Of a stretch of 64,000 nucleotides of DNA, positions 2,640-27,546 are shown one piece after another. Position numbers and translations under genes: made by a program. The stretch covers positions 3,164 through 67,163 of the forward strand of contig CAYHVI010000001.1 in assembly GCA_964359655.1 (NCBI GenBank). The letters run 5' to 3'. Source of the DNA: an uncultured Candidatus Saccharibacteria bacterium (GTDB taxonomy: Bacteria > Patescibacteriota > Minisyncoccia > Minisyncoccales > UBA10102). Within the stretch, counting starts at the first letter, position 1, and each line of letters starts with the position of its first letter. A model generated the notes under the pieces. It ran no database searches. It was not told the origin of the DNA and saw only the letters and a list, made by a program, of their open reading frames with translations.

Positions 2640-3548
2640 TCACACTCCCCTAAGATTAAACAGAGTTTGCGCATTCTTTGTCGTTGCACAGGCGACTTCT
2701 TTAGAATTCACTTTTTTGATGCGCGCGATTTCTTGGGCAATATACTTTACAAAGATTGGTTCGTTTCGCTCTTTTTCCGCTTGCGCAGGCACTAAATAAG
2801 GCGAATCTGTTTCCAGAACAATGCGATCCAAGGGAATAGATGCGATTACTTCTTCTGGTTTTGGCAATGCAGGAACATTCTTGAAAATCAAACCGTTAAA
2901 CCCAAGATACAAACCAAGACCCATAAACTTTTGCGCCTGCTCTACGGTCCCGGTAAAACAATGTATAACGCCACGCAAGGGTGTAGTTTTTAGTTTATAG
3001 TTTGTAGTTAGTAGTTCAAGTAAGTCTTCGTGGGCAACTCGGCAATGGAGAATAACAGGAAGGTTTAATCCATCTGCCAAATCCATTTGCTTTTGCAAAG
3101 TTTCTTTTTGTTTTTGCTTAATTTCCTCTCGTTTTGCTTTGCTCTTTGGGAAATAATAATAATCGAGTCCGATCTCGCCTATCGCAACCACCTTTTTACT
3201 CTTTGCAAGTTCTTTGTATTTCTCGTAATCAAATTCTTCTGATCGAGTCTCAAATGTCATCCAATTCGCAGAATTGCCCTGAGCTTGTCGAAGGGCTTCC
3301 GAATCTTCGGATTGAACCTCCAGTACATCAACCTTTCGCTGTTCTCCAAGATGAATCGGGTGCAATCCAACTGCGCTATACACCCCCTCTTTATATTGTT
3401 CTGCAATTTCAACTGCGCGCTTGGACGTGGAGTACTGCGAGCCTGGCATTATCACCCAAATATCGTTTTCCAGCACGCGTTTCAGCACTTCATCTGAATC
3501 ATTTTTGAACGCATTAAAATTCAAATGACAATGAGTATCGATCAACAT
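2640..3548 (-). CDS. tatD: TatD-family metal-dependent hydrolase/DNase, with a low-complexity internal insertion
   Basis: MLIDTHCHLNF… N-terminus plus …GLHPIH… and …AIGEIGLDYYY… TatD motifs. I take the start as the internal Met at 3546-3548, to avoid overlap with metG. It carries an extra segment …ELLTTNYKLKTTPLRG… encoded by a GTAGTTTGTAGTT-type repeat. Confidence 0.8.
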   Translation of the reverse strand: MLIDTHCHLNFNAFKNDSDEVLKRVLENDIWVIMPGSQYSTSKRAVEIAEQYKEGVYSAVGLHPIHLGEQRKVDVLEVQSEDSEALRQAQGNSANWMTFETRSEEFDYEKYKELAKSKKVVAIGEIGLDYYYFPKSKAKREEIKQKQKETLQKQMDLADGLNLPVILHCRVAHEDLLELLTTNYKLKTTPLRGVIHCFTGTVEQAQKFMGLGLYLGFNGLIFKNVPALPKPEEVIASIPLDRIVLETDSPYLVPAQAEKERNEPIFVKYIAQEIARIKKVNSKEVACATTKNAQTLFNLRGV

Positions 3549-3552
3549 AAAA

Positions 3553-5043
3553 TTAAGTCTCGATTCGCGGGAAAAGAGGATGGGATTCATTCGATTGAAG
3601 TTGCTGGACAATGTTTTCTGCGGCTTGAGGAAGAAACGGTTCCAAAGCCACAGCTATACGCCAAAGTGCGGTCAAGTTATTAACGATATCTCGATCTCTA
3701 TCTACTGCTGAAGTTTTTGGATCGAACGGCCGATGCGCCTCCGTAGAATCACTAATCCCGCTCACGCTGTAAACGTCCCAGAAACCTTGAGGAACTATAG
3801 AACTTTCTTCAGGAAGTCCTTGCCATATTAGCTCGAGCGCCTTCGCAAACTCAAAATTCTCTAGGTGCCTCCAGAGACCTCGACCTTCCCATTCATTGAT
3901 TACTACCCGACGATCGAGAAGTTCTGGTTTTATTCCATGTCTAATTGCTAATGCCAAAACTCTACTTACTTGATTTCCTAATCCATTTGCTAAATCAGCA
4001 TTATACCTTGTCTTAAACTTCTCGTAGCTAAAGTCGCCGTCTTCTGTGGCAGGAATTTCGCGCAAGAGAAAATAGCGCACCGCGTCCGCGCCGTACTTTG
4101 CGACCAGCTCGCAGGGATCTACAACATTCCCAGTGCTCTTGGACATTTTCTGGCCGTTTACCGTTATATACCCGTGGACGAAAAGTGTTTTGGGTAAAAC
4201 CAAACCCGCAGACAAAAGAAACGCCGGCCAATACACCGCGTGAAAACGGGTGATCCCTTTGCCGATTACGTGAACGTCTGCCGGCCACCACTTTTTGTAT
4301 TTTTCTTCGTCTAAACCAAACCCTACGCCCGACTGATAAATGTTTAAAGCATCGAACCACACATACATTTTTTGGCTGTCATCTCCTGGGACAGAGACGC
4401 CCCAGTTTTTCGCACGCTCATTGGAGCGCGAAATGCTTATATCTTGCAAAGGTTGGCTTAAAAAGGCCAGTACTTCATTTTTCCTTGTGACAGGAAAAAT
4501 CTTTAACTCATCTTGTTCTATTATCTCAAGGAGCTTATCTTGGTATTTGGAAAGTTTGAAAAAATAGTTCTCTTCTGCAACCATCTCAAGTTTGCGTCCC
4601 GGATGCTCAAAACACTCTTTGTTTGCGTCAAGCTCTCCTTCTGTGTAAAATGTTTCACACCCCACGCAATAGAGACCCTCGTATGATTTTTTATAGATAT
4701 CTCCGGCTTTTGCGCACAGCTCCCACAATTTTTGGCTCGCTAGGTGATGGTCTTTGCTGCTTCCTTTCTGAAATACACCAAACTGCACGCCGAGTTTTTC
4801 TGCGAGCTCGGCAAAAAGTTTCGCGTTTTCATCGATAAATTGCTGCACAGGCACTCCTGCTTTTTCTGCTGCCTGCACATTTTTCAAAGCATTTTCATCT
4901 GCGCCAGAAAGCAGCAACATATCCTCTCCTTTCAAACGGTGATAACGCGCCACCACATCTGCCTGAACAAATTCCAATGCATGGCCAATATGGGGCTTTG
5001 CATTCACATAAGGAATCGCCGTTGTAATGTAAAACTTGTTCAC
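3553..5043 (-). CDS. metG: Methionine--tRNA ligase (short form, no C-terminal tRNA-binding extension)
   Basis: Class I aaRS HIGH motif (PHIGHA) near the N-terminus and a KMSKS motif. 496 aa. Confidence 0.9.
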   Translation of the reverse strand: MNKFYITTAIPYVNAKPHIGHALEFVQADVVARYHRLKGEDMLLLSGADENALKNVQAAEKAGVPVQQFIDENAKLFAELAEKLGVQFGVFQKGSSKDHHLASQKLWELCAKAGDIYKKSYEGLYCVGCETFYTEGELDANKECFEHPGRKLEMVAEENYFFKLSKYQDKLLEIIEQDELKIFPVTRKNEVLAFLSQPLQDISISRSNERAKNWGVSVPGDDSQKMYVWFDALNIYQSGVGFGLDEEKYKKWWPADVHVIGKGITRFHAVYWPAFLLSAGLVLPKTLFVHGYITVNGQKMSKSTGNVVDPCELVAKYGADAVRYFLLREIPATEDGDFSYEKFKTRYNADLANGLGNQVSRVLALAIRHGIKPELLDRRVVINEWEGRGLWRHLENFEFAKALELIWQGLPEESSIVPQGFWDVYSVSGISDSTEAHRPFDPKTSAVDRDRDIVNNLTALWRIAVALEPFLPQAAENIVQQLQSNESHPLFPRIET

Positions 5044-8089: not shown

Positions 8090-10852
8090 CTAGGATTTAA
8101 CTTTTTTATAAGCTTCCATGATACAAAAATTCGTGACCATAGTGAGGCCGTAATCTTGCGCAAACCTTTCTGCTTCTGGGGTATTCACGCCTTCAGCCAG
8201 CCAAACAGTTTTAATATTTCCCCGCTCTACCACGTCTTTCATACATCCTACTACTGCTTCGGGTTTTCTAAAAATATCCACAATATCAATGTGTATAGTT
8301 TTAGGGATTGCCAAAAGGCTTGGATACGCCTTTTCTCCCAGCACCTCTTGAATATTGGGATTCACAGGAATAATGCGGTAGCCCTTTTCTTGGAAATACT
8401 TTGCCACGATATGGCTATGGCGTTCTGGCTTATCCGACAAACCAATAACCGCGATGGTTCTCGCATTTTTCAGAATATCTCCATGCTTGATATCTTGCGG
8501 TGTAACCGTAACAGGAGACACGCCTTCCCATTGCCAGTCCGTAAGTTCTGGAGGGTCTTCTCCAAACTTTATAATGTACGCGGTGTGTCCTTTGAGAATT
8601 TTGTGGTATGCCGCAACCAAAACGTTTTTCCTTTCTTCTGAAACCACGCCTTCTTTTGCGGCAGTCTCAACAATTTCAATGGCAAGGTGGTAACGATCCG
8701 CTTCATTCCGAACAAGCATGTCAAAAGGCGTAGTTGTCCCTCCCTTCTCTTGGTAACCATGCACTGAAAAACGCTGCGGATTTTTGACATTAAAAAGCAC
8801 TGCTTTCAAGACTTCTGGATAGCCGTGAAAATTTACAATCACTGGCTTGTCGAACGTAAAGTATTTTTCTGCATGGGGGATTTGCGCATGGAATGCGTTT
8901 TCGCAAGAACATGCCGCTTGCAACCGCATGATGTTGACAAAACGAAGACGGATTGATGGCTGATCCTTTTTTACCAGCGCAAGTGCAGCCAATGCTTCTT
9001 TGCTCACATAATCTCCCACGCCCGCAAGAACAATATGAGGATTTTTATCACTGGTAAAATCCCAAATTTGAATGCCGTCTTGGAGCGCTTTTTTTGCCTG
9101 CGAAAAGGTCAGCCAGCGCGGCTCGGGTGTTTTTCCAACCACGACAACATTCATCTGGTTCTTGGAGCTAAGCGTTTCTTCCATTACCGCAAGCATGCTG
9201 TTGTCGTCAACCGGAAAATAGACTTTGATAAAATCGTTGTGTTTTTCCAGCATACCCGAAATAAAACTGGGGTTCTGGTGAGAATATCCATTGCGTTCTT
9301 GTCTCCAGACTGTAGATGTTAGCAAATAGTTTAGAGATGGAATGTCCAGTCGCCAAGGCACAACCCGTGCATATTTTAAAAACTTTTGGTACATATGCGC
9401 CATGCTGGAGAAAATCTGGGCAAAAGCTTCGTAGGTTGTAACGACCGCATGTCTGCCGGAAAGAATATATCCTTGGGCAAGCCCATGCATATTGAGTTCA
9501 GAAAGCATCTCCATAACCCGTCCATCTCTCGCAATATCTTTGTCTGATGAAAAATACGGCCAAACAAATGCACGGGAAGTTACCTGAAAAACATCGTCAA
9601 GCCGGTTGGAGTAAGTCTCGTCGGGAGACATTAAGCGAAAATTCCTCTGCCTTTTATTCAGCACAAAGACTTTCTTCAAGTAAGATCCCGCCGTTCTCAT
9701 GGCATTTGATTGCATTTCTCCTGGCGCGACAATCTCCTTGGCGAACTTTTCAACCTTTGGCAAGACAAGGGGCTTTACGGTTTTACCGAACACATGGGGA
9801 TTATTCCCCATAAGAAGGCTCTCTTCCGGTATAACAGACAATGTGTCTTTGGCAAAACCTTTCTTCTTATCAAACAATTCTCCAAAATGATATGATTTCA
9901 TCCACCCCTCAAGCGCGTGTAATTCCTGTTCGTCGCCCCGCACCGTGGGCATAACAACTTGGTGCGCTAAAATCGTTCCTTCAATTTGTTGCCCGCGTAA
10001 TTCTTTGACCGTGGTCCACCCTTTAGGGGTTTGGAGAATAATCATTGGGAAACGCGGCCGAAACGGAGCATTCAGTTTTCTTGCGTTGCGCTGGATTTTC
10101 TTGATGCGCTGGTAACAAGTTTCGAGAGTTTTGAGCATTTTTTCATCGATTCTTGGAGCCGCTACAAACAATGGTTCATATCCGTATCCTGAAAAAAGTT
10201 CTTTTAATTCGCGATTGCTCATTCTGCCAAAAATTGATGGTCCGGAAATTTTATAGCCGTTGAGGTGCAGAATTGGTAAAACCGCGCCGTTGGTTGCAGG
10301 ATCAATCAATTTGTTAATATGCCAAGCAGTCGCTATGGCTCCTGTTTCTGCCTCGCCGTCACCTATTAAGCAGACTGCGAGTAAGTCCGGATTGTCTAAA
10401 ATTGCGCCATAAGCAGAAGCAAGCGAATATCCCAGCTCTCCGCCTTCCAGAATAAGTCCCGGGATTTCCGGACTGCAATGACTGGAAAAACCATAGGGCC
10501 AGGTAAACATCTTGGAAATATATGCAATTCCTTCGGCATTACGCGCCGCCTTCTTATAATACTTTCCGAGCGTGCCCTCCAAAAACAAGTTAGCCTGCAA
10601 TCCCGGCATACCATGTCCTGGCCCAAGGACAAAAATAGCTGATTGCTTGTGTTTTTTGACTAAATAATGTAAGTGTCCATACACAAAGTTAATGCCAGGG
10701 CAGGTCCCCCAGTGGCCAGAAAGTTTTGGCTTGATATCTTCCGCTCTCAATGGCCGCTCAAGGAGAAAATTGTCTTGCAAATAAATCTGCGCAACAGTTA
10801 CATAATTCGCTGCGCGTATGTATTTATTGATGTTATCTAAAATTTTATTCAT
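8090..10852 (-). CDS. xfp: Xylulose-5-P/fructose-6-P phosphoketolase fused to a C-terminal CoA-binding (YccU/CoA_binding_2-like) domain
   Basis: …KYIRAANY…IYLQDN… N-terminus, a GHWGTCPG motif and a TPP-binding GDGE motif. The C-terminal ~140 aa (…[36 protein letters not shown]…VDIFRK…) matches a CoA-binding Rossmann domain. I take the start at the internal Met (ATG at 10850-10852), which sits downstream of the rsmI terminator. Confidence 0.85.
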
Positions 10853-10863
10853 AATGTTGCAAA

Positions 10864-10897
10864 GAAAAAAACCGCCCTGGAGCTTGTCGAAGGGCGG
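10864..10897 (-). terminator. Rho-independent terminator after rsmI (minus strand)
   Basis: CCGCCCTggagcttgtcgaAGGGCGG hairpin preceded by an A8 run on the plus strand, giving a U-tract on the minus strand. Confidence 0.6.
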
Positions 10898-11153
10898 CGC
10901 GCTCATGTTACAAATAGTTCTTAAATTCAATAACAAGAAGCGAAGACGCACCACCCTTCAAAAGTGGTTTTTTTCGCTTTTTTACTCGCGAGTGACGAAA
11001 CCTGAATCTTCGGAACCGCAGAGACTAAACCTCGACAACAACAATAACTCCTCCCCCATCTGGAGAAGGATTTTTCAGAGCCAAGATTTTCTCTTGCGTT
11101 TACCATGATACTCAAATCATAGAGGAGTCAAAAAATAATGTCAACCCCTCCCT

Positions 11154-18457: not shown

Positions 18458-19081
18458 TCAATTTTGCAGAACCTTTGAAAGATGCTCTTGCGATATGGTG
18501 CGCAAAAGAGTTTCATTTATACCTTGAGTATCAATATTTTGCAAGGATTCAATGTTGCTCTCCAAAAACATCCCAATGAATTCGGCAATTCTCGCGTCTT
18601 TGGCAGCAATCTGCTCTAAAGAAGGCGCATATCCTGCATAAGAAAGAAGGTTCCAAAGGAAATAATAAGCAAGGATCTTCAAATCGTGACTCTCTAGTCT
18701 CGAACGGTTCAGAAAAGAAAGTGTCCCTTTGAGCAAATTCCAAATCTTTTCGTCCCGCTCTTGGCCTTTGATGAGTTCATCGGTAACTTCTGCAAATCTT
18801 TGCATTGCGCGCATACGCTCAAAGCTATTGCGTAACAAAGGATACCGTTCTACAAGAGTGGCGTCGGTAATGGTTTTGCGCGCTTTCCCCTGAATAAATT
18901 CTAGCTCTGAAAGATAAAAAAGCTCCAAGCCTCCGCGAAGTTTGGAAGTAATCTTGCGCTCTGAAATTGCCTGCAATTTTAGTTTGCCAAAATCTTTTGT
19001 AAAAACCGTAAACAGCCGATCTGCCTCCCCTCTATCCTGCTTTTTTAAAATAATCCCTTGTGTCCTGTAATGCACCGTCAT
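18458..19081 (-). CDS. recO: DNA repair protein RecO (short form)
   Basis: OB-fold N-terminus (…GIILKKQDRGEADRLFTVFT…) followed by a helical domain. Confidence 0.65.
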   Translation of the reverse strand: MTVHYRTQGIILKKQDRGEADRLFTVFTKDFGKLKLQAISERKITSKLRGGLELFYLSELEFIQGKARKTITDATLVERYPLLRNSFERMRAMQRFAEVTDELIKGQERDEKIWNLLKGTLSFLNRSRLESHDLKILAYYFLWNLLSYAGYAPSLEQIAAKDARIAEFIGMFLESNIESLQNIDTQGINETLLRTISQEHLSKVLQN

Positions 19082-22000
19082 TATTTTCGGATGGCGAGAC
19101 GGAGAGTTTGGCCTTCTAATGAGAACTCTTCTTCTACATCAAACGTTTGCTCTGACCGATCGCCCTCGCGCATTTCTTTCAACCCAACTTGAGACATAAT
19201 TGCTTTTTCATTTTCTTGCAGAATTTCTTTCAGTTCTTCTGCGCCCGTGTAGCGCAAACGTATTCTGTCTTGCGGCTTGTACCCTGCCTGCTTTCTCATT
19301 TCCTGGATATGGCGCATTATCTCGCGCAATGTTCCTTCTCTTTGCAATACGGGAGTAATGGTGGTATCGAGTTCTACCCCTTCTTTCGCGTTCGGATCGA
19401 CCAGAACCTCTTTTACATTAAGTTCATCCTTTATCAAATCCAGCAATTCTTTCGTCATTTTTAATTTTTCACTTTTAATTTTGAATTTTTGGAGCGGCTG
19501 TCTCACTTTTATTCCGACCTTCGCCCGTTCTGCCAATCCTTCTGCAACCAGCTTGCGAACTTGCATCATTTTTTTCTCGAGCTCTGCGTCAATTTTTTTT
19601 GAATCTGCTTTGGGCCAATTTTGCCAATGTACACTTCCCCTGCCCCCAAGTTCACCATAGATATACTCGCTCAAAAACGGGATGAGTGGCGCGGTCAACT
19701 TGCTGACTTCCAAAAGTACGCATCTTAAAACGCCTCTGGCTTCCTGAAGCTCTTTTTTGCTCTTGGGGTTTTGGGAACGTTGTCGAGAACGTCGAATATA
19801 CCACAAAGAGAGATCGTCGATCACAAAACTTTCGAGCACGCGCGCAGTTCCTGTGATGTCGTATTCATCAAACCTTTTGGTTGCCTCTCTTGTTATGGAG
19901 TGGATTCTCGAAATAATCCACTTATCTAAGATATTTTTTGTTTTGAGGTTTTGGGTTTTAGGGTTTGCTTGAGCATTGAGTCTTGAGGTTTGGGATTTTT
20001 TATATGTTTGGTAGAACACAAAAGAGTTCCACAACGTCAAAATAAATTTGCGCATTGTTTGCTGCAAATCTTTTTCCGCAAATAGTTTGGAATCCCACGG
20101 CTGGTTCAATGTATAAAAATACCAGCGAAGCGTGTCCACTCCATACTTTGCAATCATATCCCAAGGATTTACCACATTTCCTTTGGACTTGGACATTTTC
20201 TCGCCTTTCTCATCAAGCAAATGCCCCAAAGAAATTACGTTTTTGTATGGCGCTTTCAAGCCCAACGCCGTAGCCACAGCCAAAAGCGTATAAAACCATC
20301 CGCGTGTTTGGTCGATTGCTTCGCAAATATAATCTGCGGGGTAACCTTCCACGCCAGAAGCAAACGGCATGGAGCCTGAATCAAACCATACATCCACGAC
20401 GTCTTTTACGCGTTTCATTTGCCCTTTGCCACATTTTCCGCACTGAAATTCGATCGCATCAATGTACGGCCTGTGCAAATCAAGTTCCATATCTTCGTTC
20501 ATGGGAAGCCTCGCGAAAGCTACACGTCTTAACTCTCCTGGTTCAACTGCTTTTTTTTCGCGGAACTGCACGAATTTTTCTCGCGACATTCCCTTCATCG
20601 TTTTCTCCAACAAAGAAAGAGGTATCTCATGACTTACCAAAACAATGCGTTTCCCTTGATACTTTTTTTCTATTGCGGCTAGCAAATCAAACACGCGCTT
20701 TTCAACATCGACCCAATTCTCTCCCTGCGGCGGCCGTTCCACAAATCTACGCAGATAATGCTCCTGGATCGTTTCTCCTTCTTTTCTAAAGTATGCTCCA
20801 AACTCACGAATGTGCTTTCCATTGAAAATGCCTACATTAAGTTCTCGTAGCCGCGCATCGTAGATAATTTGCGCGCCAAGTTTTTTCCCAATGATTTCGG
20901 CAGTTTGTTTCGTTCGCAAAAGATCGGATGAAAAAATCAAATCAATGTTTTTGCGCAACAGACCTTCTGCGATTTTTGTAATTTGTTTCACTCCCTTGGG
21001 CGTCAAAGGAAACGGATCCGCCTCAGGATACGAACCCAAAATCCCCGTTACTTGACGCATAGAATGGCCGTGCCGCAAAAGATAGTACGTGTTTCCCGAA
21101 GTTCTTTGTTTTTTGAGATCGTCCAGAGAACCTATGACTTCCAAATGATCGCACGAACTGCACTCCCACACAGGTAAAGGAGTACCCCAGTACCGTTCTC
21201 TCGAAAACGCCCAGTCTTTCACCTCGGCCAACCATTCACCCATCCTGCCTACTTTCATATGGCTCGGAATCCAATTAATCTGTTGGTTATTCGAAATGAG
21301 ATCTTTTTTAATCTTCTGCATATTCACAAACCAGCTTTCTTTTGCGTAATACAGCAAAGGAGTCGAACACCTCCAGCAAAAAGGATATTCGTGTTCATAC
21401 AACTCTTCTTTGAACAAAAGATTTCTTTGCTTTAAATCTTCAACAATCAGAGGTTCTGCTTCTTTCACGAATACTCCTTGCCATTGAGGCACTAATTCGT
21501 TGAACTTTCCTTCTTCGTCTACCGTATGCCTTTTGGGAAGATTTAGTTTTTGCCCGAGCTTGTAATCGTCTTCTCCGTACATCACCGCAGTGTGCACAAC
21601 TCCTGTTCCTTCCTGCGTAGAAACAAAATCCGCCAGTGCCACATAATGTTTTTTCTCTGGCTGGCTTTTGAGAGAATCAAAAAGCGGTTCATATTCTATA
21701 CCTTCAAGGTTTTTTCCTGAAACTTCTTTGAGAATTTCGTAATCTCCCTGAAGAATCTTTAGAAGATCTTTGGCAAGAATATATATTTCTTCTCCTTGTT
21801 TTACTGCGACATACGAGATATTTTCCCCTACCGCAAGAGCGACGTTCCCAGGCAGTGTCCACGGTGTTGTTGTCCACGCCAACAAAAACAATTTTGAATT
21901 TTGAATTTTGAATTTTGAAATTGTTTCGGATTTCGAATTTCGGATTTCGAATTTCACAAAGACGGTTCTGTCTTTGACCGTCTTGTACCCTTGCGCCAAT

Positions 22001-22596
22001 TCATGCGACGACAAAGGAGTCCCACAACGCGGACAATAAGGCACCACTTTGTAATCTTTATATAACAATCCTTTCTTCCAAAACTGCTGGATAATCCACC
22101 ATAGACTCTCCATATAATTCTTCTCATAGGTGATGTACGGATTATCGATGTCTAACCAAAAACCTATGCGCTCTGTAAGTTCATCCCATTCTCTTTTATA
22201 TTCCCATACCGACTGTTTGCATTCTTTATTGAATTTTGCGATCCCGTATTGCTCAATTTCTTTTTTGGACTTTAATCCAAGTTTTTTCTCAACCTGCAAC
22301 TCTACGGGCAGACCGTGAGTATCCCAGCCAGCTTTTCTGCCAACGTAAAATCCCCGCATTGTTTTGTAGCGGCATATTACGTCTTTAAAAACCCGCGAAA
22401 GAACATGATGAATTCCGGGACTTCCGTTTGCCGTGGGAGGGCCTTCAAAAAATACAAAACGAGGAGAGCGCTTTCTCCTCTCAAGAGATTTTTCAAACGT
22501 TTTCTGCTCTTTCCACCGCTTCAGTATCTGCTCTTCCAACTTCGAAAAATCAGCTTCCATGCTCTTTAGAATACTACGTTTTGCATACCTTTTCAA
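19081..22596 (-). CDS. ileS: Isoleucine--tRNA ligase with an inserted histidine-phosphatase (PGAM-like) domain and two in-frame repeat insertions
   Basis: HIGH-type signature (…PTANGSPGIHHV…), KMSKS (KMSKSKGN), and editing and anticodon-binding domains. Residues ~498-703 (nt ~20488-21105) form a histidine-phosphatase domain (…YYLLRHGHS… plus …VLVSHE…). It sits between the conserved …YWGTPLPVWEC… and …HRPYID…WFDSG… segments. Confidence 0.9.
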   Translation of the reverse strand: MKRYAKRSILKSMEADFSKLEEQILKRWKEQKTFEKSLERRKRSPRFVFFEGPPTANGSPGIHHVLSRVFKDVICRYKTMRGFYVGRKAGWDTHGLPVELQVEKKLGLKSKKEIEQYGIAKFNKECKQSVWEYKREWDELTERIGFWLDIDNPYITYEKNYMESLWWIIQQFWKKGLLYKDYKVVPYCPRCGTPLSSHELAQGYKTVKDRTVFVKFEIRNSKSETISKFKIQNSKLFLLAWTTTPWTLPGNVALAVGENISYVAVKQGEEIYILAKDLLKILQGDYEILKEVSGKNLEGIEYEPLFDSLKSQPEKKHYVALADFVSTQEGTGVVHTAVMYGEDDYKLGQKLNLPKRHTVDEEGKFNELVPQWQGVFVKEAEPLIVEDLKQRNLLFKEELYEHEYPFCWRCSTPLLYYAKESWFVNMQKIKKDLISNNQQINWIPSHMKVGRMGEWLAEVKDWAFSRERYWGTPLPVWECSSCDHLEVIGSLDDLKKQRTSGNTYYLLRHGHSMRQVTGILGSYPEADPFPLTPKGVKQITKIAEGLLRKNIDLIFSSDLLRTKQTAEIIGKKLGAQIIYDARLRELNVGIFNGKHIREFGAYFRKEGETIQEHYLRRFVERPPQGENWVDVEKRVFDLLAAIEKKYQGKRIVLVSHEIPLSLLEKTMKGMSREKFVQFREKKAVEPGELRRVAFARLPMNEDMELDLHRPYIDAIEFQCGKCGKGQMKRVKDVVDVWFDSGSMPFASGVEGYPADYICEAIDQTRGWFYTLLAVATALGLKAPYKNVISLGHLLDEKGEKMSKSKGNVVNPWDMIAKYGVDTLRWYFYTLNQPWDSKLFAEKDLQQTMRKFILTLWNSFVFYQTYKKSQTSRLNAQANPKTQNLKTKNILDKWIISRIHSITREATKRFDEYDITGTARVLESFVIDDLSLWYIRRSRQRSQNPKSKKELQEARGVLRCVLLEVSKLTAPLIPFLSEYIYGELGGRGSVHWQNWPKADSKKIDAELEKKMMQVRKLVAEGLAERAKVGIKVRQPLQKFKIKSEKLKMTKELLDLIKDELNVKEVLVDPNAKEGVELDTTITPVLQREGTLREIMRHIQEMRKQAGYKPQDRIRLRYTGAEELKEILQENEKAIMSQVGLKEMREGDRSEQTFDVEEEFSLEGQTLRLAIRK

Positions 22597-22615
22597 TTAC
22601 CAAATATCCTTTCAA

Positions 22616-22653
22616 ATACTACAAAGTATTGCCATGGCAAGAAGTTGTAGTAT
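22616..22653. promoter_or_regulatory. Nested palindrome ATACTACAA-agta-TTGCCATGGCAA-gaag-TTGTAGTAT (candidate operator between the PaaX-like gene and ileS)
   Basis: A perfect 9-bp inverted repeat flanks a perfect 12-bp palindrome. A near-copy lies on the other side of the PaaX-like gene at 23235-23273. Confidence 0.5.
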
Positions 22654-23231
22654 CAAAGTTTGAAGTATTTTCGAATCTCGCGATCAGCACCAATGTCTCT
22701 TGCCACAATCACTCTTAACTCTTTCTCGCTTAAAGCAAAGAATTCTCGTAAGAGCCCTATTTCGTCCTTACAGTTATATGGGTGAACCCAGACGCTTTTC
22801 TGAAGAGGATACAAGTTCAAACGCTTTAAAAATCCTCGCAAAGCCTCTCGCTTTATTCGCTGCGGCTGGACAATGTCGAAAATAATAATCCTCCAATTTC
22901 CATCCCACTGTTTTGGTTTCTTTATTTCCAGACTATTCACCTGAAACCTTCCTGCCTTCCTTCTTCCCTCTTCAGTGAGAGAAATATAAATCTGATGATT
23001 ATGCTTTTCCACCTTAATATATCCGTCCCGCCGTAATCGAGAGAACGTATCATATATCTTTTTTCTGCCGTATTTCTTCCTTCCAAGAAATGCTCTTAAG
23101 AGATTAGTGCCGAAATAGGGAGATGAGGAGGCGACCACCATTGCACCTCCCGCCGCAAGCCAAGTAAGAATATCTTTCGTAATCTCTGGCTTCGGTTTCT
23201 TTAGATAATATTTGTACTTACTCATATACAT
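22653..23231 (-). CDS. PaaX-family-like winged-helix transcriptional regulator, short form (paralog 1)
   Basis: N-terminal wHTH (…IYDTFSRLRRDGYIKVEKHNHQIYISLTEEGRR…) and the PaaX_C core motif (WDGNWRIIIFDI…LYPLQKSVWV), which resembles E. coli PaaX …WDGKWLLLL…. A 192-aa paralog is at 53769-54347. Confidence 0.55.
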   Translation of the reverse strand: MYMSKYKYYLKKPKPEITKDILTWLAAGGAMVVASSSPYFGTNLLRAFLGRKKYGRKKIYDTFSRLRRDGYIKVEKHNHQIYISLTEEGRRKAGRFQVNSLEIKKPKQWDGNWRIIIFDIVQPQRIKREALRGFLKRLNLYPLQKSVWVHPYNCKDEIGLLREFFALSEKELRVIVARDIGADREIRKYFKL

Positions 23232-23234
23232 AAT

Positions 23235-23273
23235 GGTACTACAATTTATTGCCTAGGCAAAACTTCGTAGTTT
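23235..23273. promoter_or_regulatory. Palindrome TACTACAA-ttta-TTGCCTAGGCAA-aact-TCGTAGT overlapping the start region of PaaX-like paralog 1
   Basis: Second copy of the site found at 22616-22653, located 4-10 nt upstream of the gene's start codon. Confidence 0.5.
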
Positions 23274-23418
23274 CTTAATAGTTCCTAACGAGTTCGTCAA
23301 CGACAGAAACTTTTCAATCGTTCCGCATTGCTCAAATCACCTTTTTAATGCTTTTTCAATTTGAAGTATAATGGCTTAGTATCTATTGTACCTTTTACGG
23401 AAAGGAGATTGAGTAACA

Positions 23419-23816
23419 TGACTCTCAAGGAATGGTGGGAAAAACTTTATGACACTGTGCGTCTAAACGACTCTGGGGAATCTATTAAGTTCTTGGGACG
23501 TGAACCATCTTCCTTACTCCGAAGAGCAATCATGGAAGCCGATAACCCCTTTCCCCTGTCTCTCGGAGAACAGCTGCTCAACATAATCGCACAAGAACTT
23601 TTGAATCGGAATGTAGACCGTGGGGAGCGCATCTCAAATTTATTTGCAATAATAGTAAGTCGCTGCACAAGGACACTACGCGAGAAAGCATTAGGAGAGC
23701 TCATTGTTCTTGATGCAAAAGAACAAGTGGAAGATAGCATTATGGCTGTCGCTCTCCAGCGTCTTCCCTCGTTCTGCCCTTGGGATCCGAGATATTCGAG
23801 TTTGCTCAATAAATGA
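23419..23816 (+). CDS. Hypothetical protein (~132 aa)
   Basis: ORF with an AAGGAGA RBS 8 nt upstream of the ATG at 23419. I recognise no motif. Confidence 0.4.
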
Positions 23817-23857
23817 GGGCGGCAAAACCTTTTACGGTTTTGTCGCCCTCTAACTTT

Positions 23858-24304
23858 TTAAATTCGGGGTCCGTAGTTTCGCTTCTTCATCCCGAAGTTT
23901 ATGAAGGCTTCCAACTTGTGCACGTGGGGAATCTTCCCCACCTTCTCGCGCAAGAACTTGCTGAGCTCCTCCTGCGAACACAAGGTAGCCCAGATGAAGA
24001 TATCAAAAGAACCCGTGGTCATCATCACCCAGTTGACCTCGCTCAACTCCGCAAGGGCGTTCTCTACGCAGTTCACCATCCCTGGCTTTGCCTGAATACC
24101 TACCAATACCTCTGAGGTGTAACCGAGTTTCGCAGGATCGGGCAGCGCCACCATTTTTATGTATCCTTCGCTGATTAACCGTTTCAGCCGACGCCTCACC
24201 ACTTGCTCACTCACTCTCAATAGTCTTGCGATGTAGGCTTTGGAGCGTACAGCGTTCTCTTGTACCATCTTGATGATTTGCAAATCGAGATTATCTAATT
24301 CCAT
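23858..24304 (-). CDS. lrp: Lrp/AsnC-family transcriptional regulator (GC-rich gene)
   Basis: HTH_AsnC (…LDLQIIKMVQENAVRSKAYIARLLRVSEQVVRRRLKRLISEGYIK…) plus a C-terminal RAM domain. GC is clearly above the local background. Confidence 0.8.
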   Translation of the reverse strand: MELDNLDLQIIKMVQENAVRSKAYIARLLRVSEQVVRRRLKRLISEGYIKMVALPDPAKLGYTSEVLVGIQAKPGMVNCVENALAELSEVNWVMMTTGSFDIFIWATLCSQEELSKFLREKVGKIPHVHKLEAFINFGMKKRNYGPRI

Positions 24305-24397
24305 GGAAACCTCCTGACTCGAGAGTTCAGCAAATTTTTGCTGTAAACAGGTTATACATCCTTTAAGGAGGATTTGTCAACGATCATTAGATTGTAT

Positions 24398-26137
24398 TCA
24401 CATCTTCTCAAGAGTTTGTATCCCAAGAAGATAAAGGCTGTTTTGGATGAGTTGGGCGACAGCAGAGGTAAGAAGCAAACGAAACTCTTTTTGCTGTTTG
24501 GTTTCTGCTTGAAGCACAGAATGCGCGTTATAAAAGGCATTGTATTTTTGCGCAAGATCAAACACAAAGTTGCAAATAAGATTCGGGGCATATTTTTCTG
24601 CCGCCTCATACACAATCTCTGGAAATTTGTATATCGTGCGCAGTATACCCAATTCCTCTGCCGATAAATTAGGTAAAACATTGCTACGTAGCAGTATACT
24701 TCTTGCCGCATTGGGCTTGTGTAGGATGCTCTGACAACGAGCGTATGTATAAAGCAAATAAGGGCCGGAGTTTCCATCGAGCGCTACTGAACGTGCCAAA
24801 TCAAACATAACGTTCGATTTCGTGTCGGTTTTGAGCACCGAATATTTTACTGCCGCGATTGTGCCTTTTTCCCGCACTTCCTCTTTTTCTTTCAAAGTAA
24901 GTTCTTGGCTTGTGATAAGGTTTGTCAAAAGATTTTTCACTTCGTTGAGCAACCCGTCCACTGTCACCACCACGCCTGTCCGAGACGAAATCTTCTTTCC
25001 AACCAACTGCACCATACCCATAGGCAAGTGATACTCACGAGTCTTAAATTTTTCATCAACCAGTTCCAAAGCCTTAAACACTACCTCAAAGTATCCTGAC
25101 TGCTCATTTGCCACCACGTGAACGTTCAAATCAAAAGGAAAATCTTTATATTGTAAAGGCGCCAAACCCATTTCCTTTGCTTCGTACGTAGGATTTCCTT
25201 CTTTGGTGACAAAGACTCTTTTGTGCAAACCATACTTTTCTCCGTCGAATATGATTGCGCCCTCGCTCTTTTCGAAAACCTTTCCGACGTTCTGCAATAC
25301 AATGTTCTTGCCTTGTTCCGCAACTTCACTTTCAAAGTAGAGTTTATCAAACGTGGTGCCAAAGCGAGGGTAAAAGTGTTTATAGTAATCTAAACTCCAC
25401 TTTCGGGTACGCTTGTATGCTGGCATGACGCTCCTGTCTTTGCGATATAACTTTGCATTAAGCTCATCAATGTTTTCTTTATGCGTTTCATACTCCTGAT
25501 TTCCCCTTACATAACCCTCACCCAAAAGATGAGCTTTTTCTTGCAAATGTAACTTTTCCGCATCGCTCCACGACATCCCTCGCTCTCCTAAAATCTTTTC
25601 TGTGCCCCATATAGCTTTTGCCACGTGCGGCCCAATATCTCCCTGATAGTTTGCGCGGAATACTTTCGTCCCATTCGCCTCAAAAATACGCGCCAAAGCT
25701 TCTCCGGTAATTAAAGTTCGCATATGGCCAATATGCATTTCTTTGTGCGTATTCGGATGCGCGTACTCCACCATTATCTTTTTGCCGCGAAGCAATGTGT
25801 TTTGCCCGAATTTTTCTTTTTCCCGAAGCACTGTTTGAAGCGTCGCTTCAAACAGTTTGCGCGCCAGGTAGAAGTTTATAAAGCCATTTACTGTTTCAAC
25901 TTTCTCGAGGATTTCTGATTGTTTACCGCTGATCGCTGAAGCGATTGTCTCGGCAAGCTCTTTTGGATTTTTCTTGAGCTGCTTTCCTAGAATCAGAGCA
26001 ATGTTCGTCGAATAATCTCCATGTTCTGGATTTTCTGGATGCTCCAATAAGATCTGCTCAATAGAAAAATCGCCCAATTCATTTTTGAGTTCCTTGAGCG
26101 CATTCCGAATGATTTTCTCAATTTCTTCTCGGATCAT
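24398..26137 (-). CDS. argS: Arginine--tRNA ligase
   Basis: 579 aa with an N-terminal Arg_tRNA_synt_N-like region, a HIGH-class signature (…AHPNTHKEMHIGHMR…) and a DALR anticodon-binding C-terminus. Confidence 0.88.
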   Translation of the reverse strand: MIREEIEKIIRNALKELKNELGDFSIEQILLEHPENPEHGDYSTNIALILGKQLKKNPKELAETIASAISGKQSEILEKVETVNGFINFYLARKLFEATLQTVLREKEKFGQNTLLRGKKIMVEYAHPNTHKEMHIGHMRTLITGEALARIFEANGTKVFRANYQGDIGPHVAKAIWGTEKILGERGMSWSDAEKLHLQEKAHLLGEGYVRGNQEYETHKENIDELNAKLYRKDRSVMPAYKRTRKWSLDYYKHFYPRFGTTFDKLYFESEVAEQGKNIVLQNVGKVFEKSEGAIIFDGEKYGLHKRVFVTKEGNPTYEAKEMGLAPLQYKDFPFDLNVHVVANEQSGYFEVVFKALELVDEKFKTREYHLPMGMVQLVGKKISSRTGVVVTVDGLLNEVKNLLTNLITSQELTLKEKEEVREKGTIAAVKYSVLKTDTKSNVMFDLARSVALDGNSGPYLLYTYARCQSILHKPNAARSILLRSNVLPNLSAEELGILRTIYKFPEIVYEAAEKYAPNLICNFVFDLAQKYNAFYNAHSVLQAETKQQKEFRLLLTSAVAQLIQNSLYLLGIQTLEKM

Positions 26138-26725: not shown

Positions 26726-27172
26726 ATGAAGGTATATGCCGAAAACAGAAAAGCGCATTTCAACTATGACATTTTGGAAACATTCCAGGCTGGTTTGGCA
26801 TTGCAGGGGCAAGAAGTAAAATCGGTGAGGTTGGGAAGAATAAGTCTTGCCGGGTCTTACGTGATTGTTCGAAGAGAAGAGCTTTTTTTGCGCGGGGCAA
26901 CCATTTCTCCCTACCAGCCAGCGAACGCTCCTACGAACTACCATGCAGAGCGCGACAGAAAGCTTCTGTTGCACAAGGAGGAAATCCAGTATCTTCTCGG
27001 TAAATCAAAGGAAAGGGGCTTGACTTTAGTACCCTTAAAGGCGTATAATGACAAGCGCAATATCAAGCTTGAGTTTGGCTTAGCTCGGGGCAAAAAGAAG
27101 GAAGACAAAAGAGAGAATATCAAAAAAAGAGAAGCCGAACGCGAGATTGAACGCGCCTTAAAATACGGGTAA
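26726..27172 (+). CDS. smpB: SsrA-binding protein
   Basis: …HFNYDILETFQAGLALQGQEVKS… matches SmpB. It is directly followed by tmRNA. Confidence 0.9.
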   Translation: MKVYAENRKAHFNYDILETFQAGLALQGQEVKSVRLGRISLAGSYVIVRREELFLRGATISPYQPANAPTNYHAERDRKLLLHKEEIQYLLGKSKERGLTLVPLKAYNDKRNIKLEFGLARGKKKEDKRENIKKREAEREIERALKYG

Positions 27173-27177
27173 TGCAT

Positions 27178-27546
27178 GGGGATGTCTGTTTTGACAGCGA
27201 GATCAAGAAGTTCTTTGCGATGAGAGTATGGTCTCTTTTAAAACCAAAGCCCAGTTTGACTGGGCAGGCATACAACTGCCAACTTATTTGCCCCACAGCG
27301 GGCACTTGCTTACGCTTAATAAGCGCTAGGCCATTCGCTCTTTGACTCTCGATAAAAGAAGCGGGTGTCAACCATCGAGATAGATAGCTTTTTTGAAGGT
27401 CCGGAAGCTATTGATTTTAAGGACCATCAAAGAGAGAATGGTTTTGTCCAGTTCTCACATCCTCTCTTCAAATTAACTGGACTATCATCGTAGATGGAAT
27501 TTCTTAATCTCGCTGGACGAGGGCTCACTGCCCTCCATCTCCACCC
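27178..27546 (+). ncRNA. ssrA: tmRNA (ssrA)
   Basis: Starts GGGGAUG… 5 nt after the smpB stop. The 3' end is GGACGAGGGCUCACUGCCCUCCAUCUCCACC, with a 5-bp T-stem, 7-nt loop and 7-nt acceptor strand complementary to the 5' GGGGAUG. An internal frame …GCC AAC UUA UUU GCC CCA CAG CGG GCA CUU GCU UAC GCU UAA UAA gives tag …ANLFAPQRALAYA with a double stop. Confidence 0.8.

What the first reader, a model, noticed from the sequence alone, without database searches (positions are those of the whole stretch)
20488..21105. Isoleucyl-tRNA synthetase with a ~200-aa histidine-phosphatase (phosphoglycerate-mutase-like, RHG) domain inserted into the catalytic core
In IleRS the zinc-knuckle region normally spans only ~15 aa between …WxCxxC…IGS… and …HRPY(I/V)D…WFDSG…. 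Here ~205 aa are inserted (aa ~498-703). The insert begins …TYYLLRHGHSMRQV…, the RHG catalytic signature of histidine phosphatase branch 1. It continues with …LTPKGVKQ… and …RIVLVSHEIPLSLL…, the second catalytic His context. The reading frame is intact on both sides, which argues for a genuine domain insertion rather than a gene fusion or assembly artefact. I am not aware of a described PGAM-domain insertion in IleRS. Such a phosphatase or phosphodiesterase next to the aminoacylation site could act on an adenylate or nucleotide, for example in editing, Ap4A metabolism or regulation.
Basis: partly seen in the sequence, partly recalled or inferred. Interest (0 to 1): 0.8.

Follow-up and report, generated by a model that had tools for sequence, protein, structure and literature searches.

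The report
Phosphatase domain nested inside isoleucyl-tRNA synthetase
The gene for the enzyme that loads isoleucine onto tRNA carries, in a loop of its catalytic core, a complete and apparently active phosphatase that sister lineages encode as the separate gene just upstream; hundreds of candidate-phyla bacteria share this fusion, and I found no paper that describes it.

Summary
Confirmed. The ORF 19081-22560(-) is a type-2 IleRS (TIGR00392 898 bits). A full histidine-phosphatase domain (Pfam His_Phos_1, E=1.8e-33, aa 505-679) sits between the two CxxC halves of the CP3 zinc knuckle. The catalytic residues R508, H509, R561, E585 and H656 are intact.

It is not an artefact. All 120 closest database IleRS clusters and 39 of 80 GTDB species loci have the same in-frame insertion. 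In 35 other loci the same ~198-aa phosphatase is a free gene upstream of ileS (argS-HP-ileS-recO). In most insertion-bearing loci that slot is empty, which suggests the neighbour gene was captured.

More distant Patescibacteria (hits named Gracilibacteria, Peregrinibacteria and Peribacteria) carry 1-3 phosphatase domains per IleRS, at four or more sites. ValRS carries them too, with at least four in one fragment. The catalytic pentad is intact in 249 of 254 domain copies. Some of these IleRS also host GNAT, P-loop kinase or HAD domains.

The nearest solved relatives are small-molecule phosphatases (PhoE, PspA, CobC, GpgP), not mutases. The substrate and the coupling to aminoacylation are unknown. 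Recurrent internal nesting points to a functional link with the synthetase core. Ten literature searches found no description.

The parts
19081..22560 (-). ileS::His_Phos_1 gene. This is a type-2 IleRS with a nested phosphatase, 1159 aa from ATG 22560; the mechanical ORF starts at TTG 22596, and the stop is TAA at 19081-19083.
21106..22560 (-). N-terminal part of IleRS: first half of the Rossmann fold, CP core, CP1 editing domain (TTTPWT at 21856-21873), CP2 and the first half of CP3.
22405..22416 (-). Class I signature motif in its non-canonical GXHH form (GIHH, aa 61-64).
   Evidence: for the sequence; the motif is nearly invariant in alignment A2. The GXHH variant of IleRS2 is described in PMC10485003.
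21151..21162 (-). First CxxC of the CP3 zinc knuckle (C479, C482).
   Evidence: the cysteines are invariant in A2. The Zn-binding CP3 of T. thermophilus IleRS is described in PMC7191050.
20521..21096 (-). Histidine phosphatase domain (aa 501-692), colinear from end to end with the free-standing ~198-aa phosphatases.
21067..21075 (-). RHG motif: R508, the H509 nucleophile and G510.
20914..20916 (-). R561, the second phosphate-binding Arg (LLRTKQT).
20842..20844 (-). E585, the acid/base Glu (RLRE).
20629..20631 (-). H656, the second catalytic His (VSHE).
20476..20520 (-). C-terminal linker of the insert (AFARLPMNEDMELDL; family consensus FKxLPYNExMELD), predicted to be ordered.
20431..20442 (-). 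Second CxxC of the CP3 zinc knuckle (C719, C722).
19084..20475 (-). C-terminal part of IleRS: HRPYID, WFDSG (20374-20388), KMSKS (20185-20199), the anticodon-binding domain and DUF5915.
24398..26137 (-). argS, the upstream synteny anchor. In sister lineages the free phosphatase gene lies between argS and ileS.
22597..24397 (.). The argS-ileS interval, which is the slot the free phosphatase gene occupies elsewhere. Here it holds a PaaX-like gene (22653-23231 -), an unassigned ORF (23361-23816 +) and an AsnC/Lrp regulator (23858-24304 -). No phosphatase remnant is present.
18458..19081 (-). recO, the downstream synteny anchor.

Best explanation
This is a bifunctional enzyme. It is a working type-2 IleRS whose CP3 zinc-knuckle loop hosts a complete, catalytically competent histidine phosphatase of the short PhoE/PspA/CobC kind.

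Shown: the domain's identity, its intact catalytic pentad, its fold, its exact insertion point, its wide conservation, and its kinship with a free ~198-aa phosphatase that sister lineages encode upstream of ileS, directly adjacent in most.

Inferred origin: the neighbour gene (argS-HP-ileS) was captured into ileS and the upstream slot was then vacated.

Inferred mechanism: IleRS charges tRNA-Ile as usual. The nested domain hydrolyses a phosphomonoester through a phospho-His509 intermediate; R508 and R561 bind the phosphate, E585 acts as acid/base, and H656 assists. The fusion fixes at 1:1 stoichiometry, and at the synthetase's catalytic core, a partnership that already existed between operon neighbours.

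The substrate is unknown. My preferred guess is a nucleotide-type phosphomonoester handled at or near the synthetase: AMP or a related adenosine phosphate, or a phosphorylated tRNA 3' end. The same phosphatase is nested at four or more different loops around the second half of the Rossmann fold of IleRS and ValRS in other Patescibacteria. So proximity to the core seems to matter, rather than one exact geometry.
For: Identity. Pfam His_Phos_1 scores E=1.8e-33 and ileS TIGR00392 scores 898 bits. The full-length AF2 model has pLDDT 87.6 and pTM 0.82, with block pLDDT of 89-97 (mostly 92-97) across the insert, and matches IleRS2 structures 8C8V and 1ILE. The domain model (pLDDT 90.5) best matches PspA 4IJ5, GpgP 4PZ9/6S2Q, PhoE 1H2E and CobC 6E4B; a sequence search of the PDB agrees.

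Catalytic competence. R, H, R and H are present in 98-100% of 41 inserted and 43 free copies, and the acid/base position is always E or D. The full pentad is present in 249 of 254 domain instances across lineages and sites. The insert evolves about as slowly as the anticodon-binding region: mean pairwise identity is 0.50 against 0.54.

Not an artefact. All 120 best full-length hits carry PF00133 plus PF00300. In 39 of 80 GTDB species loci the domain lies inside ileS, within one ORF (up to 1196 aa, some cut by contig ends), and 33 full-length examples show the same junction.

Link to ileS. In 35 of 80 loci the free gene lies upstream of ileS, 25 of them within 80 nt, sometimes overlapping it. 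In 23 insertion-bearing loci argS and ileS are only 4-171 nt apart, so the slot is empty.

Recurrence. Sites A1, A2, B and C occur singly and in the combinations BC, AC, ABC, AA and AB. Copies cluster by site and are never most similar to the co-resident copy, so these are old, separate insertions. ValRS also carries the domain at the homologous CP3 position. One IleRS has a HAD phosphatase and no histidine phosphatase. No simple N-terminal HP-IleRS fusion appears among the top 150 representatives, although stop-codon loss would create one easily.
Against: No biochemical data exist and no substrate can be read from the sequence. The nearest characterised relatives are generic small-molecule phosphatases with unrelated substrates.

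I could not obtain model coordinates. The position of the phosphatase active site relative to the aminoacylation site, the editing site and the tRNA path is therefore unknown.

Gene adjacency in tiny, vertically inherited genomes could give both the mutational opportunity for capture and conserved synteny without any biochemical coupling.

The variety of other domains nested in the IleRS of related CPR lineages (GNAT, kinase, DUF559, an IS200-like transposase domain) suggests this protein is simply very tolerant of insertions.

The polarity of the event (capture versus fission) rests on an NJ tree with only 52% bootstrap support, and one Azambacteria sequence (L055) falls outside the insertion clade. 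The phosphatase-domain tree is unresolved.
Confidence: 0.55

Rival explanations
1. Piggy-back fusion without biochemical coupling. The phosphatase is an independent housekeeping or metabolic enzyme, for example a sugar-phosphate, phosphoserine or phosphoglycerate phosphatase. It happened to lie next to ileS and was captured into a permissive surface loop. The fusion only guarantees co-expression in a streamlined genome.
For: The closest solved relatives are ordinary small-molecule phosphatases. The domain also functions as a free protein. It tolerates four or more positions and 1-4 copies. The IleRS of related lineages also hosts unrelated domains, including DUF559 and an IS200-like transposase domain, which suggests high tolerance to insertion. 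A few free copies are not next to ileS (L035, L076, L085).
Against: The linkage to ileS holds in 74 of 80 species loci, although those loci were selected only by a phosphatase motif. Old, independent insertions hit only IleRS and its closest paralogue ValRS. The domain is always nested near the catalytic core and is never found as the mutationally easier terminal fusion. A non-homologous HAD phosphatase occurs in one IleRS that lacks the histidine phosphatase.
Confidence: 0.28
2. tRNA end-healing module. The phosphatase removes a 3'- or 2'-phosphate (or pyrophosphate) from the acceptor end of tRNA-Ile or tRNA-Val bound to the synthetase, restoring a chargeable end after nuclease or toxin damage. 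This is a specific sub-case of the coupled model.
For: The domain is strongly basic: net charge is +13.4 on average in inserted copies, about twice the per-residue value of the IleRS core. Some related IleRS also carry a P-loop kinase of the AAA_33 type whose only PDB sequence hit is the RNA-repair kinase-phosphatase Pnkp1, although the hit is weak (E=8e-4). One IleRS carries a HAD phosphatase instead. Kinase plus phosphatase is the logic of polynucleotide end healing (established knowledge of T4 Pnkp and Pnkp1-Rnl-Hen1; PMC4411300 is listed).
Against: I know of no histidine-phosphatase-superfamily member that acts on RNA ends, and a search found none. The HAD domain in P0461 is of the capped HAD_2 small-molecule type. 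Repairing only tRNA-Ile and tRNA-Val would not rescue a damaged tRNA pool. CPR proteins are generally basic.
Confidence: 0.1
3. Self-protecting protein phosphatase. The domain removes inhibitory phosphates placed on the synthetase by kinase toxins, by analogy with HipA-type kinases that phosphorylate GltX or TrpS.
For: All insertion sites flank the nucleotide-binding half of the catalytic fold. The superfamily includes protein phosphatases such as SixA, PGAM5 and Sts-1 (established knowledge). JGI labels a related insert 'phosphohistidine phosphatase SixA'.
Against: The sequence and fold neighbours are small-molecule phosphatases, not SixA or PGAM5. No kinase that targets IleRS is known. The deep, lineage-wide conservation looks like a housekeeping role and not a conflict-driven one.
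Confidence: 0.04
4. Non-catalytic module. The domain has become a structural or ligand-sensing appendage of IleRS and no longer turns over substrate.
For: The window copy has lost three residues that are nearly invariant in the family (W to Y and K to A in the CWPEK motif, and N to Q after RHG).
Against: The catalytic pentad is intact here and in 249 of 254 copies after deep divergence.
Confidence: 0.03

Closest known systems
Short broad-specificity histidine phosphatases (branch 1): PhoE/YhfR of Geobacillus stearothermophilus (1EBB, 1H2E), phosphoserine phosphatase PspA (4IJ5), alpha-ribazole phosphatase CobC (6NRU, 6E4B) and glucosyl-3-phosphoglycerate phosphatase Rv2419c (4PZ9)
   Same: It shares their ~200-aa alpha/beta fold, the RHG nucleophile motif, the R-H-R-E-H pentad and the lack of the long mutase C-terminal tail. 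These are the best sequence and fold matches.
   Different: It is nested inside an aminoacyl-tRNA synthetase, or encoded upstream of one. It falls below every NCBIfam equivalog cutoff. It has its own conserved CWPEK and SDLLRTKQT motifs. Its substrate is unknown.
Type-2 IleRS (IleRS2): Priestia megaterium 8C8V and Thermus thermophilus 1ILE, the latter with a Zn-binding CP3 subdomain
   Same: The domain order, the GXHH/KMSKS motifs, the CP1 editing domain, the four-Cys CP3 knuckle and the C-terminal DUF5915 region all correspond. TM-scores normalised to target length are 0.82-0.90 (CP3 nomenclature from PMC7191050).
   Different: About 197 extra residues, forming an autonomous enzyme domain, lie between the two CxxC halves of the CP3 knuckle.
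NCBIfam NF040702 'isoleucine--tRNA ligase, N-acetyltransferase domain-containing' (ileS_w_GNAT)
   Same: It is the one catalogued case I found of an IleRS that carries an additional enzyme domain. GNAT domains co-occur with the phosphatase in IleRS from hits named Gracilibacteria and Peregrinibacteria.
   Different: The window protein has no GNAT domain and scores 344 bits against the 1999-bit cutoff. No curated model or paper covers the phosphatase-bearing form.
CP1 editing domain of class Ia synthetases (IleRS, ValRS, LeuRS)
   Same: It is a precedent for a hydrolytic domain nested within the Rossmann fold of the same enzymes.
   Different: CP1 is universal, ancient and of a different fold, and it hydrolyses aminoacyl esters. 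The phosphatase is lineage-specific, still exists as a free gene, and belongs to a phosphomonoesterase family.
Bifunctional RNase H/acid phosphatase (Rv2228c type, NF005567)
   Same: It is a branch-1 histidine phosphatase fused to an enzyme that acts on nucleic acids. It is among the NCBIfam hits to the insert (78 bits).
   Different: It is a terminal fusion and not a nested insertion. The partner is RNase H. The score is below the cutoff of 326.

Membership tests
Isoleucyl-tRNA synthetase (TIGR00392, type 2) | Whole-protein score above the curated equivalog cutoff. | tested here: met
   897.9 bits against 621.4; the match is split into two stretches by the insert.
Isoleucyl-tRNA synthetase (TIGR00392, type 2) | Class I signature motifs HXGH (or the IleRS2 variant GXHH) and KMSKS. 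| tested here: met
   GIHH at aa 61-64 and KMSKS at aa 800-804. GXHH is a documented functional IleRS2 variant (PMC10485003).
Isoleucyl-tRNA synthetase (TIGR00392, type 2) | CP1 editing domain with its conserved Thr-rich motif, and overall fold of solved IleRS2. | tested here: met
   TTTPWT at aa 242-247 is invariant in A2. Foldseek TM-scores normalised to target are 0.82 for 8C8V and 0.90 for 1ILE.
Isoleucyl-tRNA synthetase (TIGR00392, type 2) | Aminoacylation of tRNA-Ile. | not testable with these tools
   Only inferred, from intact motifs and from the gene occupying the conserved argS-ileS-recO position of the ordinary ileS.
Histidine phosphatase superfamily, branch 1 (PF00300) | Profile score above the gathering threshold. 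| tested here: met
   116.3 bits against 21.7, E=1.8e-33, covering profile positions 2-170 of 194.
Histidine phosphatase superfamily, branch 1 (PF00300) | Catalytic core: RHG nucleophile His, second Arg, Glu acid/base and second His. | tested here: met
   R508, H509, G510, R561, E585 and H656 are present.
Histidine phosphatase superfamily, branch 1 (PF00300) | Characteristic alpha/beta fold. | tested here: met
   The AF2 domain model has pLDDT 90.5. Foldseek probability is 1.00 to PspA, GpgP, PhoE and CobC, with TM 0.70-0.77.
Histidine phosphatase superfamily, branch 1 (PF00300) | Phosphomonoesterase activity through a phospho-His intermediate. | not testable with these tools
   This needs an enzyme assay.
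Cofactor-dependent phosphoglycerate mutase (dPGM; NF038349, NF002901, NF002339) | Equivalog score above cutoff, plus mutase-specific features (HGN after the second His, C-terminal tail). | tested here: not met
   Scores are 89.3 against 225, 80.2 against 261 and 25.2 against 316. The sequence reads SHE and not HGN. The best structural matches are phosphatases, not mutases. 'PGAM-like' describes the fold only.
Alpha-ribazole phosphatase CobC (TIGR03162) and phosphoserine phosphatase PspA (NF045917) | Equivalog score above cutoff. | tested here: not met
   84.5 against 162.9 and 69.5 against 350.
ileS_w_GNAT (NF040702) and MupA/MupB (NF000257/8) | Exception-model score above cutoff; a GNAT domain for the former. 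| tested here: not met
   343.8 against 1999, 835.8 against 1900 and 832.1 against 1900. No GNAT hit is found in Pfam.

The most novel reading that the evidence does not exclude
Class Ia synthetases of Patescibacteria (IleRS and ValRS) have repeatedly recruited phosphatase modules, and in some lineages kinase and GNAT modules, because an extra and so far undescribed chemical step is coupled to aminoacylation in these organisms. Possible steps are removal of a phosphate from the tRNA acceptor end, from an adenosine nucleotide at the active site, or from the enzyme itself. That would be a new kind of synthetase-linked repair, quality-control or detoxification activity.
Probability: 0.25. Interest if true: 0.9.

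Novelty: new variant of a known kind. Interest (0 to 1): 0.72.

Why it matters
Aminoacyl-tRNA synthetases are among the best-studied enzymes, yet the catalogues and papers I consulted list no phosphatase domain. These were the AARS Online paper's text and domain tables and a 2026 IleRS survey of about 96,000 sequences.

Here a catalytically intact phosphatase is tied to IleRS or ValRS across a very large bacterial radiation. It occurs as an operon neighbour, as a nested domain at four or more sites, and in up to four copies.

Gene-neighbourhood and fusion evidence of this strength usually marks a real functional partnership. The finding therefore gives a concrete, testable handle on unknown biology of translation in CPR bacteria, which are hard to culture. 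It also gives a clean natural example of how a neighbouring gene becomes a nested domain of an essential enzyme.

If the phosphatase acts on tRNA ends, on adenylates or on the enzyme itself, that would add a new accessory activity to the synthetase repertoire. If it does not, the case remains a striking example of domain hitch-hiking in streamlined genomes.

Tried and rejected
1. Assembly or frameshift artefact: rejected. The ORF is intact, the same junction is seen in 33 full-length GTDB examples, and the same architecture appears in 120 database clusters.

2. A second, free phosphatase copy or a decayed remnant in the window or in the argS-ileS gaps of insertion-bearing loci: none found. tblastn hits at 23535-23720 and 15-308 have E of about 0.02-0.03; the 15-308 stretch, translated in that frame, contains stop codons. 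A relaxed HMM search of the gaps finds nothing better than E=0.46.

3. True dPGM, CobC or PspA orthologue: rejected by the curated cutoffs.

4. Single versus multiple insertion events within Paceibacteria: only partly resolved. In an IleRS-core NJ tree all insertion forms except L055 fall in one clade, with 52/100 bootstrap support. The phosphatase-domain tree (180 columns) is unresolved.

5. Geometry of the phosphatase pocket relative to the synthetic site, the editing site and the tRNA path: not obtainable. The prediction tool returns no coordinates and no file appears in /data.

6. Literature: ten searches and targeted reading of four aaRS papers found no description of the insertion. The PMC7191050 and PMC11685878 reads covered CP2/CP3 and zinc nomenclature only (all search/reading calls: 20, 21, 34, 41, 43, 48-50, 66, 68, 76, 95, 96, 99).

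7. Recent intragenic duplication as the source of multi-copy proteins: rejected for the A/B/C combinations, because copies cluster by site and never with the co-resident copy.

8. Net charge as evidence for RNA binding: suggestive only.

9. The Pnkp1 hit of the kinase insert is weak (E=8e-4, P-loop region only) and is not relied on.
Full report
OBSERVATION. The window has one uninterrupted ORF on the minus strand, 19081..22596 (1171 codons from a TTG). The ATG at 22560 gives a 1159-aa product identical to public protein P0121. NCBIfam identifies it as isoleucine--tRNA ligase (TIGR00392, 897.9 bits, cutoff 621.4), with the match split into two stretches. Pfam breaks tRNA-synt_1 at aa 502 (profile position 271 of 414) and places His_Phos_1 at aa 505-679 (E=1.8e-33, 116 bits, cutoff 21.7). 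Anticodon_1 and DUF5915 follow. GC content is continuous across the insert.

ANATOMY. The insert lies between the two CxxC halves of a four-cysteine knuckle: C479/C482, then the insert, then HRPYID 708-713, then C719/C722, then WFDSG 737-741. In the IleRS literature this is the Zn-binding CP3 subdomain, which joins CP2 to the second half of the catalytic fold (PMC7191050). Alignment with free-standing relatives shows that aa 501-692 are colinear with a whole ~198-aa phosphatase, from its first beta-strand to its C-terminus. A 15-aa ordered linker follows. In relatives without the insert, IGS and HRP are 16-20 aa apart, and the CxxC-to-CxxC distance has a median of 42 aa against 239 aa with the insert. 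The synthetase parts look functional. The signature motif is GIHH, a GXHH variant known to work in IleRS2 (PMC10485003). KMSKS, the editing-site TTTPWT and all four Zn cysteines are present, and the Thr-rich editing motif, the core of KMSKS and the four cysteines are invariant in 114 orthologues. An AlphaFold2 model of the full protein (pLDDT 87.6, pTM 0.82; block pLDDT 89-97, mostly 92-97, across the insert) superposes on P. megaterium IleRS2 (8C8V, TM 0.82 normalised to target) and T. thermophilus IleRS (1ILE, 0.90).

NOT AN ARTEFACT. A search with the full protein returned 120 best clusters (53-100% identity; most are 1110-1240 aa, with two shorter fragments). All of them carry PF00133 plus PF00300. 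Their sources name them Wildermuthbacteria, Yanofskybacteria, Nealsonbacteria, Paceibacterota and Parcubacteria. Some have been in GenBank and UniRef since the 2015 CPR genomes, annotated only as IleRS or 'class I tRNA ligase family protein'. A scan of one genome per GTDB species with a phosphatase-only motif (SD[LI]LRTKQT) gave 80 loci. In 39 of them the domain sits inside ileS, within one ORF (up to 1196 aa, some cut by contig ends), and the 33 full-length examples share the same junction: IGSxxDLxxQKFSxN|xYFxLRHG ... ELRKxxFKxLPYNExMELD|FHRPYID.

ORIGIN. When I searched with the insert plus its junctions, almost all hits were free ~198-aa His_Phos_1 proteins of the same bacteria, at about 50% identity. 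Their genes lie immediately upstream of ileS in a conserved block: smpB / argS - HP - ileS - small ORF - recO - DUF7619 - class II aaRS. Of the 80 GTDB loci, 35 have the free gene upstream of ileS. In 25 of these the gap is 80 nt or less, sometimes with overlap; in 10 there is room for one extra gene. Only 6 loci show no ileS nearby, and three of those are cut by contig ends. Loci with the free gene have about 570-620 nt between argS and ileS, which is the size of the phosphatase gene. In 23 insertion-bearing loci the two genes are only 4-171 nt apart, so the slot is empty. The window keeps the same synteny (smpB 26726-27172, argS 24398-26137, ileS::HP, recO 18458-19081). Its 1.8-kb argS-ileS interval holds a PaaX-like gene, an unassigned ORF and an AsnC/Lrp gene, with no phosphatase remnant. 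In an NJ tree of the IleRS core (939 columns), all insertion-bearing sequences except one Azambacteria protein (L055) form a single clade nested among lineages with the free gene. Bootstrap support is only 52/100, and the 180-column phosphatase tree is unresolved. Inserted and free copies belong to one subfamily: 45% identity between the two groups, against 46-50% within each. I therefore infer that the neighbouring gene was captured into the CP3 loop and the upstream copy was lost. The reverse process (fission) is not excluded.

THE WIDER PATTERN. A profile search of 1.84 billion representatives found 228 members at E<=1e-30. They were a mix of free proteins and IleRS-sized hosts, plus some proteins with several copies. 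Following one of these (P0377) led to IleRS whose sources name them Gracilibacteria, Peregrinibacteria and Peribacteria. Using the WFDSG, DQxRGW and KMSKS motifs as anchors and reading the junctions, I found four insertion points:
- A1, as in the window.
- A2, after the second CxxC and before RVPEVxDCWF.
- B, after WFESG...YPF and before FPADFIAEGxDQTRGWF.
- C, in the loop between the first two helices of the anticodon-binding bundle.

These sites occur singly and in the combinations BC, AC, ABC, AA and AB. Copies resemble other copies at the same site (C to C in 56 of 57 cases, A to A in 47 of 49, B to B in 14 of 17). They never most resemble the co-resident copy, so these are old, separate insertions and not recent internal duplications. 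The domain also occurs in ValRS. A 1337-aa ValRS (L090:17319-21332, with Val_tRNA-synt_C) has His_Phos_1 at 511-663, at the homologous point of the tRNA-synt_1 profile (about 275 of 414). It comes from a genome whose IleRS lacks the domain. A truncated ValRS-like protein (P0257) has at least four tandem copies. Some of these IleRS additionally host GNAT, AAA_33/Zeta-toxin-like P-loop kinase, DUF559 or IS200-like transposase domains. One (P0461) has a HAD_2 phosphatase and no histidine phosphatase. NCBIfam already has an exception model for a GNAT-bearing IleRS, NF040702.

IS THE PHOSPHATASE ACTIVE, AND OF WHAT KIND? The residues R508, H509, R561 and H656 are conserved in 98-100% of 41 inserted and 43 free copies, G510 in 98-100%, and position 585 is always E or D. 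The R-H-R-E/D-H pentad is present in 249 of 254 domain instances across all lineages and sites. Among 114 orthologues the insert has a mean pairwise identity of 0.50, close to the anticodon-binding and C-terminal region (0.54) and below the catalytic halves (0.67-0.73). It is therefore under purifying selection. The domain model (pLDDT 90.5) and the PDB sequence search agree on the nearest relatives: PspA phosphoserine phosphatase, Rv2419c glucosyl-3-phosphoglycerate phosphatase, PhoE, CobC and a riboflavin-pathway phosphatase. All are short small-molecule phosphatases. It fails every curated equivalog cutoff (dPGM, GpmB, CobC, PspA) and has SHE where mutases have HGN. 'Phosphoglycerate-mutase-like' therefore describes the fold and not the function.

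MECHANISM. Shown: a complete, conserved phosphatase catalytic apparatus nested in an apparently functional IleRS, and a tight, ancient and recurrent genomic association of this phosphatase with IleRS and ValRS. Inferred: the domain hydrolyses a phosphomonoester through a phospho-His509 intermediate, and its function is tied to the synthetase.

The arguments for coupling are:
- The linkage to ileS holds in 74 of 80 species loci that were chosen without reference to ileS.
- There are several independent insertions, and all of them are into IleRS or its closest paralogue.
- One IleRS carries a non-homologous phosphatase (HAD) in place of the histidine phosphatase.
- Although stop-codon loss in the HP-ileS gene pair would readily give an N-terminal fusion, none is seen among the top 150 representatives. 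Every fusion is nested around the second half of the Rossmann fold.

The arguments against are:
- The nearest relatives are generic metabolic phosphatases.
- The domain also works as a free protein and in several positions.
- CPR IleRS tolerates many unrelated inserts.
- Adjacency itself provides the mutational opportunity for capture.

I give 0.55 to the coupled model. The preferred but unproven substrate is a nucleotide-type phosphomonoester or a phosphorylated tRNA 3' end. I give 0.28 to pure piggy-backing, and the rest to narrower or non-catalytic readings. The basic charge of the domain (+13 on average) and a weak Pnkp1 hit of the co-occurring kinase hint at RNA, but both are soft evidence. 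I could not measure where the phosphatase pocket points, because model coordinates are not exposed.

WHAT IS KNOWN. Ten full-text searches found no description of a histidine-phosphatase domain in any aminoacyl-tRNA synthetase. Targeted reading added the same result for a 2026 survey of about 96,000 IleRS sequences, the AARS Online paper and its domain tables, and the IleRS2 signature-motif paper (read only for the motif and CP3); two IleRS structure papers were read for CP2/CP3 nomenclature only. The sequences themselves are public and are machine-annotated.

VERDICT. I class it as a new variant of a known kind (a synthetase with an accessory enzyme domain). The function is unknown but readily testable. 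Interest 0.72.

Noticed in passing
window 22405-22416 (-), aa 61-64: The class I signature motif is GIHH, the non-canonical GXHH form that in IleRS2 confers mupirocin hyper-resistance (PMC10485003). It is nearly invariant in the 114 insertion-bearing orthologues (consensus KPGIHHVLSR).
   Followed up: partly
P0268, P0377, P0402, P0405, P0311, P0301 (loci L086, L087): Divergent IleRS (their relatives are named Gracilibacteria, Peregrinibacteria or Peribacteria) carry two or three histidine-phosphatase domains at up to three of four distinct sites (A1/A2 in CP3, B after WFESG, C at the start of the anticodon-binding bundle). Copies cluster by site, so the insertions are old and separate.
   Followed up: yes
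L090:17319-21332 (+); P0257: A ValRS (1337 aa) has the same phosphatase family nested at the homologous CP3 position, in a genome whose IleRS (P0467) has no insert. About 235 further residues between the phosphatase and WFSSA are unassigned. The ValRS-like fragment P0257 has at least four tandem copies.
   Followed up: partly
P0400, P0478, P0484, P0461, P0462, P0413: IleRS of related CPR lineages also host nested GNAT acetyltransferase, AAA_33/Zeta-toxin-like P-loop kinase, DUF559 endonuclease-like, IS200-like transposase (Y1_Tnp) and HAD_2 phosphatase domains, reaching 1400-1860 aa. The kinase insert's only PDB sequence hit is the RNA-repair protein Pnkp1, and it is weak (E=8e-4).
   Followed up: partly
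window 22653-24304: The argS-ileS interval, which holds the free phosphatase gene in sister lineages, here holds a PaaX-like (Cas2-like middle domain) gene, an unassigned 151-aa ORF on the opposite strand and an AsnC/Lrp regulator. This looks like a secondary insertion into the vacated slot.
   Followed up: partly
window 8090-10954 (-): A 954-aa phosphoketolase (NCBIfam PRK05261 subfamily, 934 bits over aa 35-811) has a ~140-aa C-terminal extension that weakly matches part of an archaeal ADP-forming acetate--CoA ligase (aa 827-922, E=8e-12).
   Followed up: no
window 26726-27546 (+): smpB (26726-27172) is immediately followed by the tmRNA gene (27178-27546, Rfam 96 bits), divergent from argS. 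smpB lies next to argS in the related loci too.
   Followed up: no
L001:11396-11710, L003:11442-11768, L005:2107-2484: A small conserved ORF (104-125 aa, no Pfam hit) lies between ileS and recO in many related loci. It is absent from the window, where recO starts at the ileS stop codon.
   Followed up: no
L055 (Azambacteria MEYT01000020.1), ileS ORF 1276-4863: This is the only insertion-bearing IleRS that falls outside the main insertion clade in the IleRS-core tree. It may be a second capture at the same site, gene transfer, or a tree artefact.
   Followed up: partly
window 21028-21045 (-), aa 518-523, and aa 515: The window's phosphatase deviates from the family at three nearly invariant positions: CWPEK is SYPEA here, and the Asn after RHG is Gln. 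All catalytic residues are kept.
   Followed up: no
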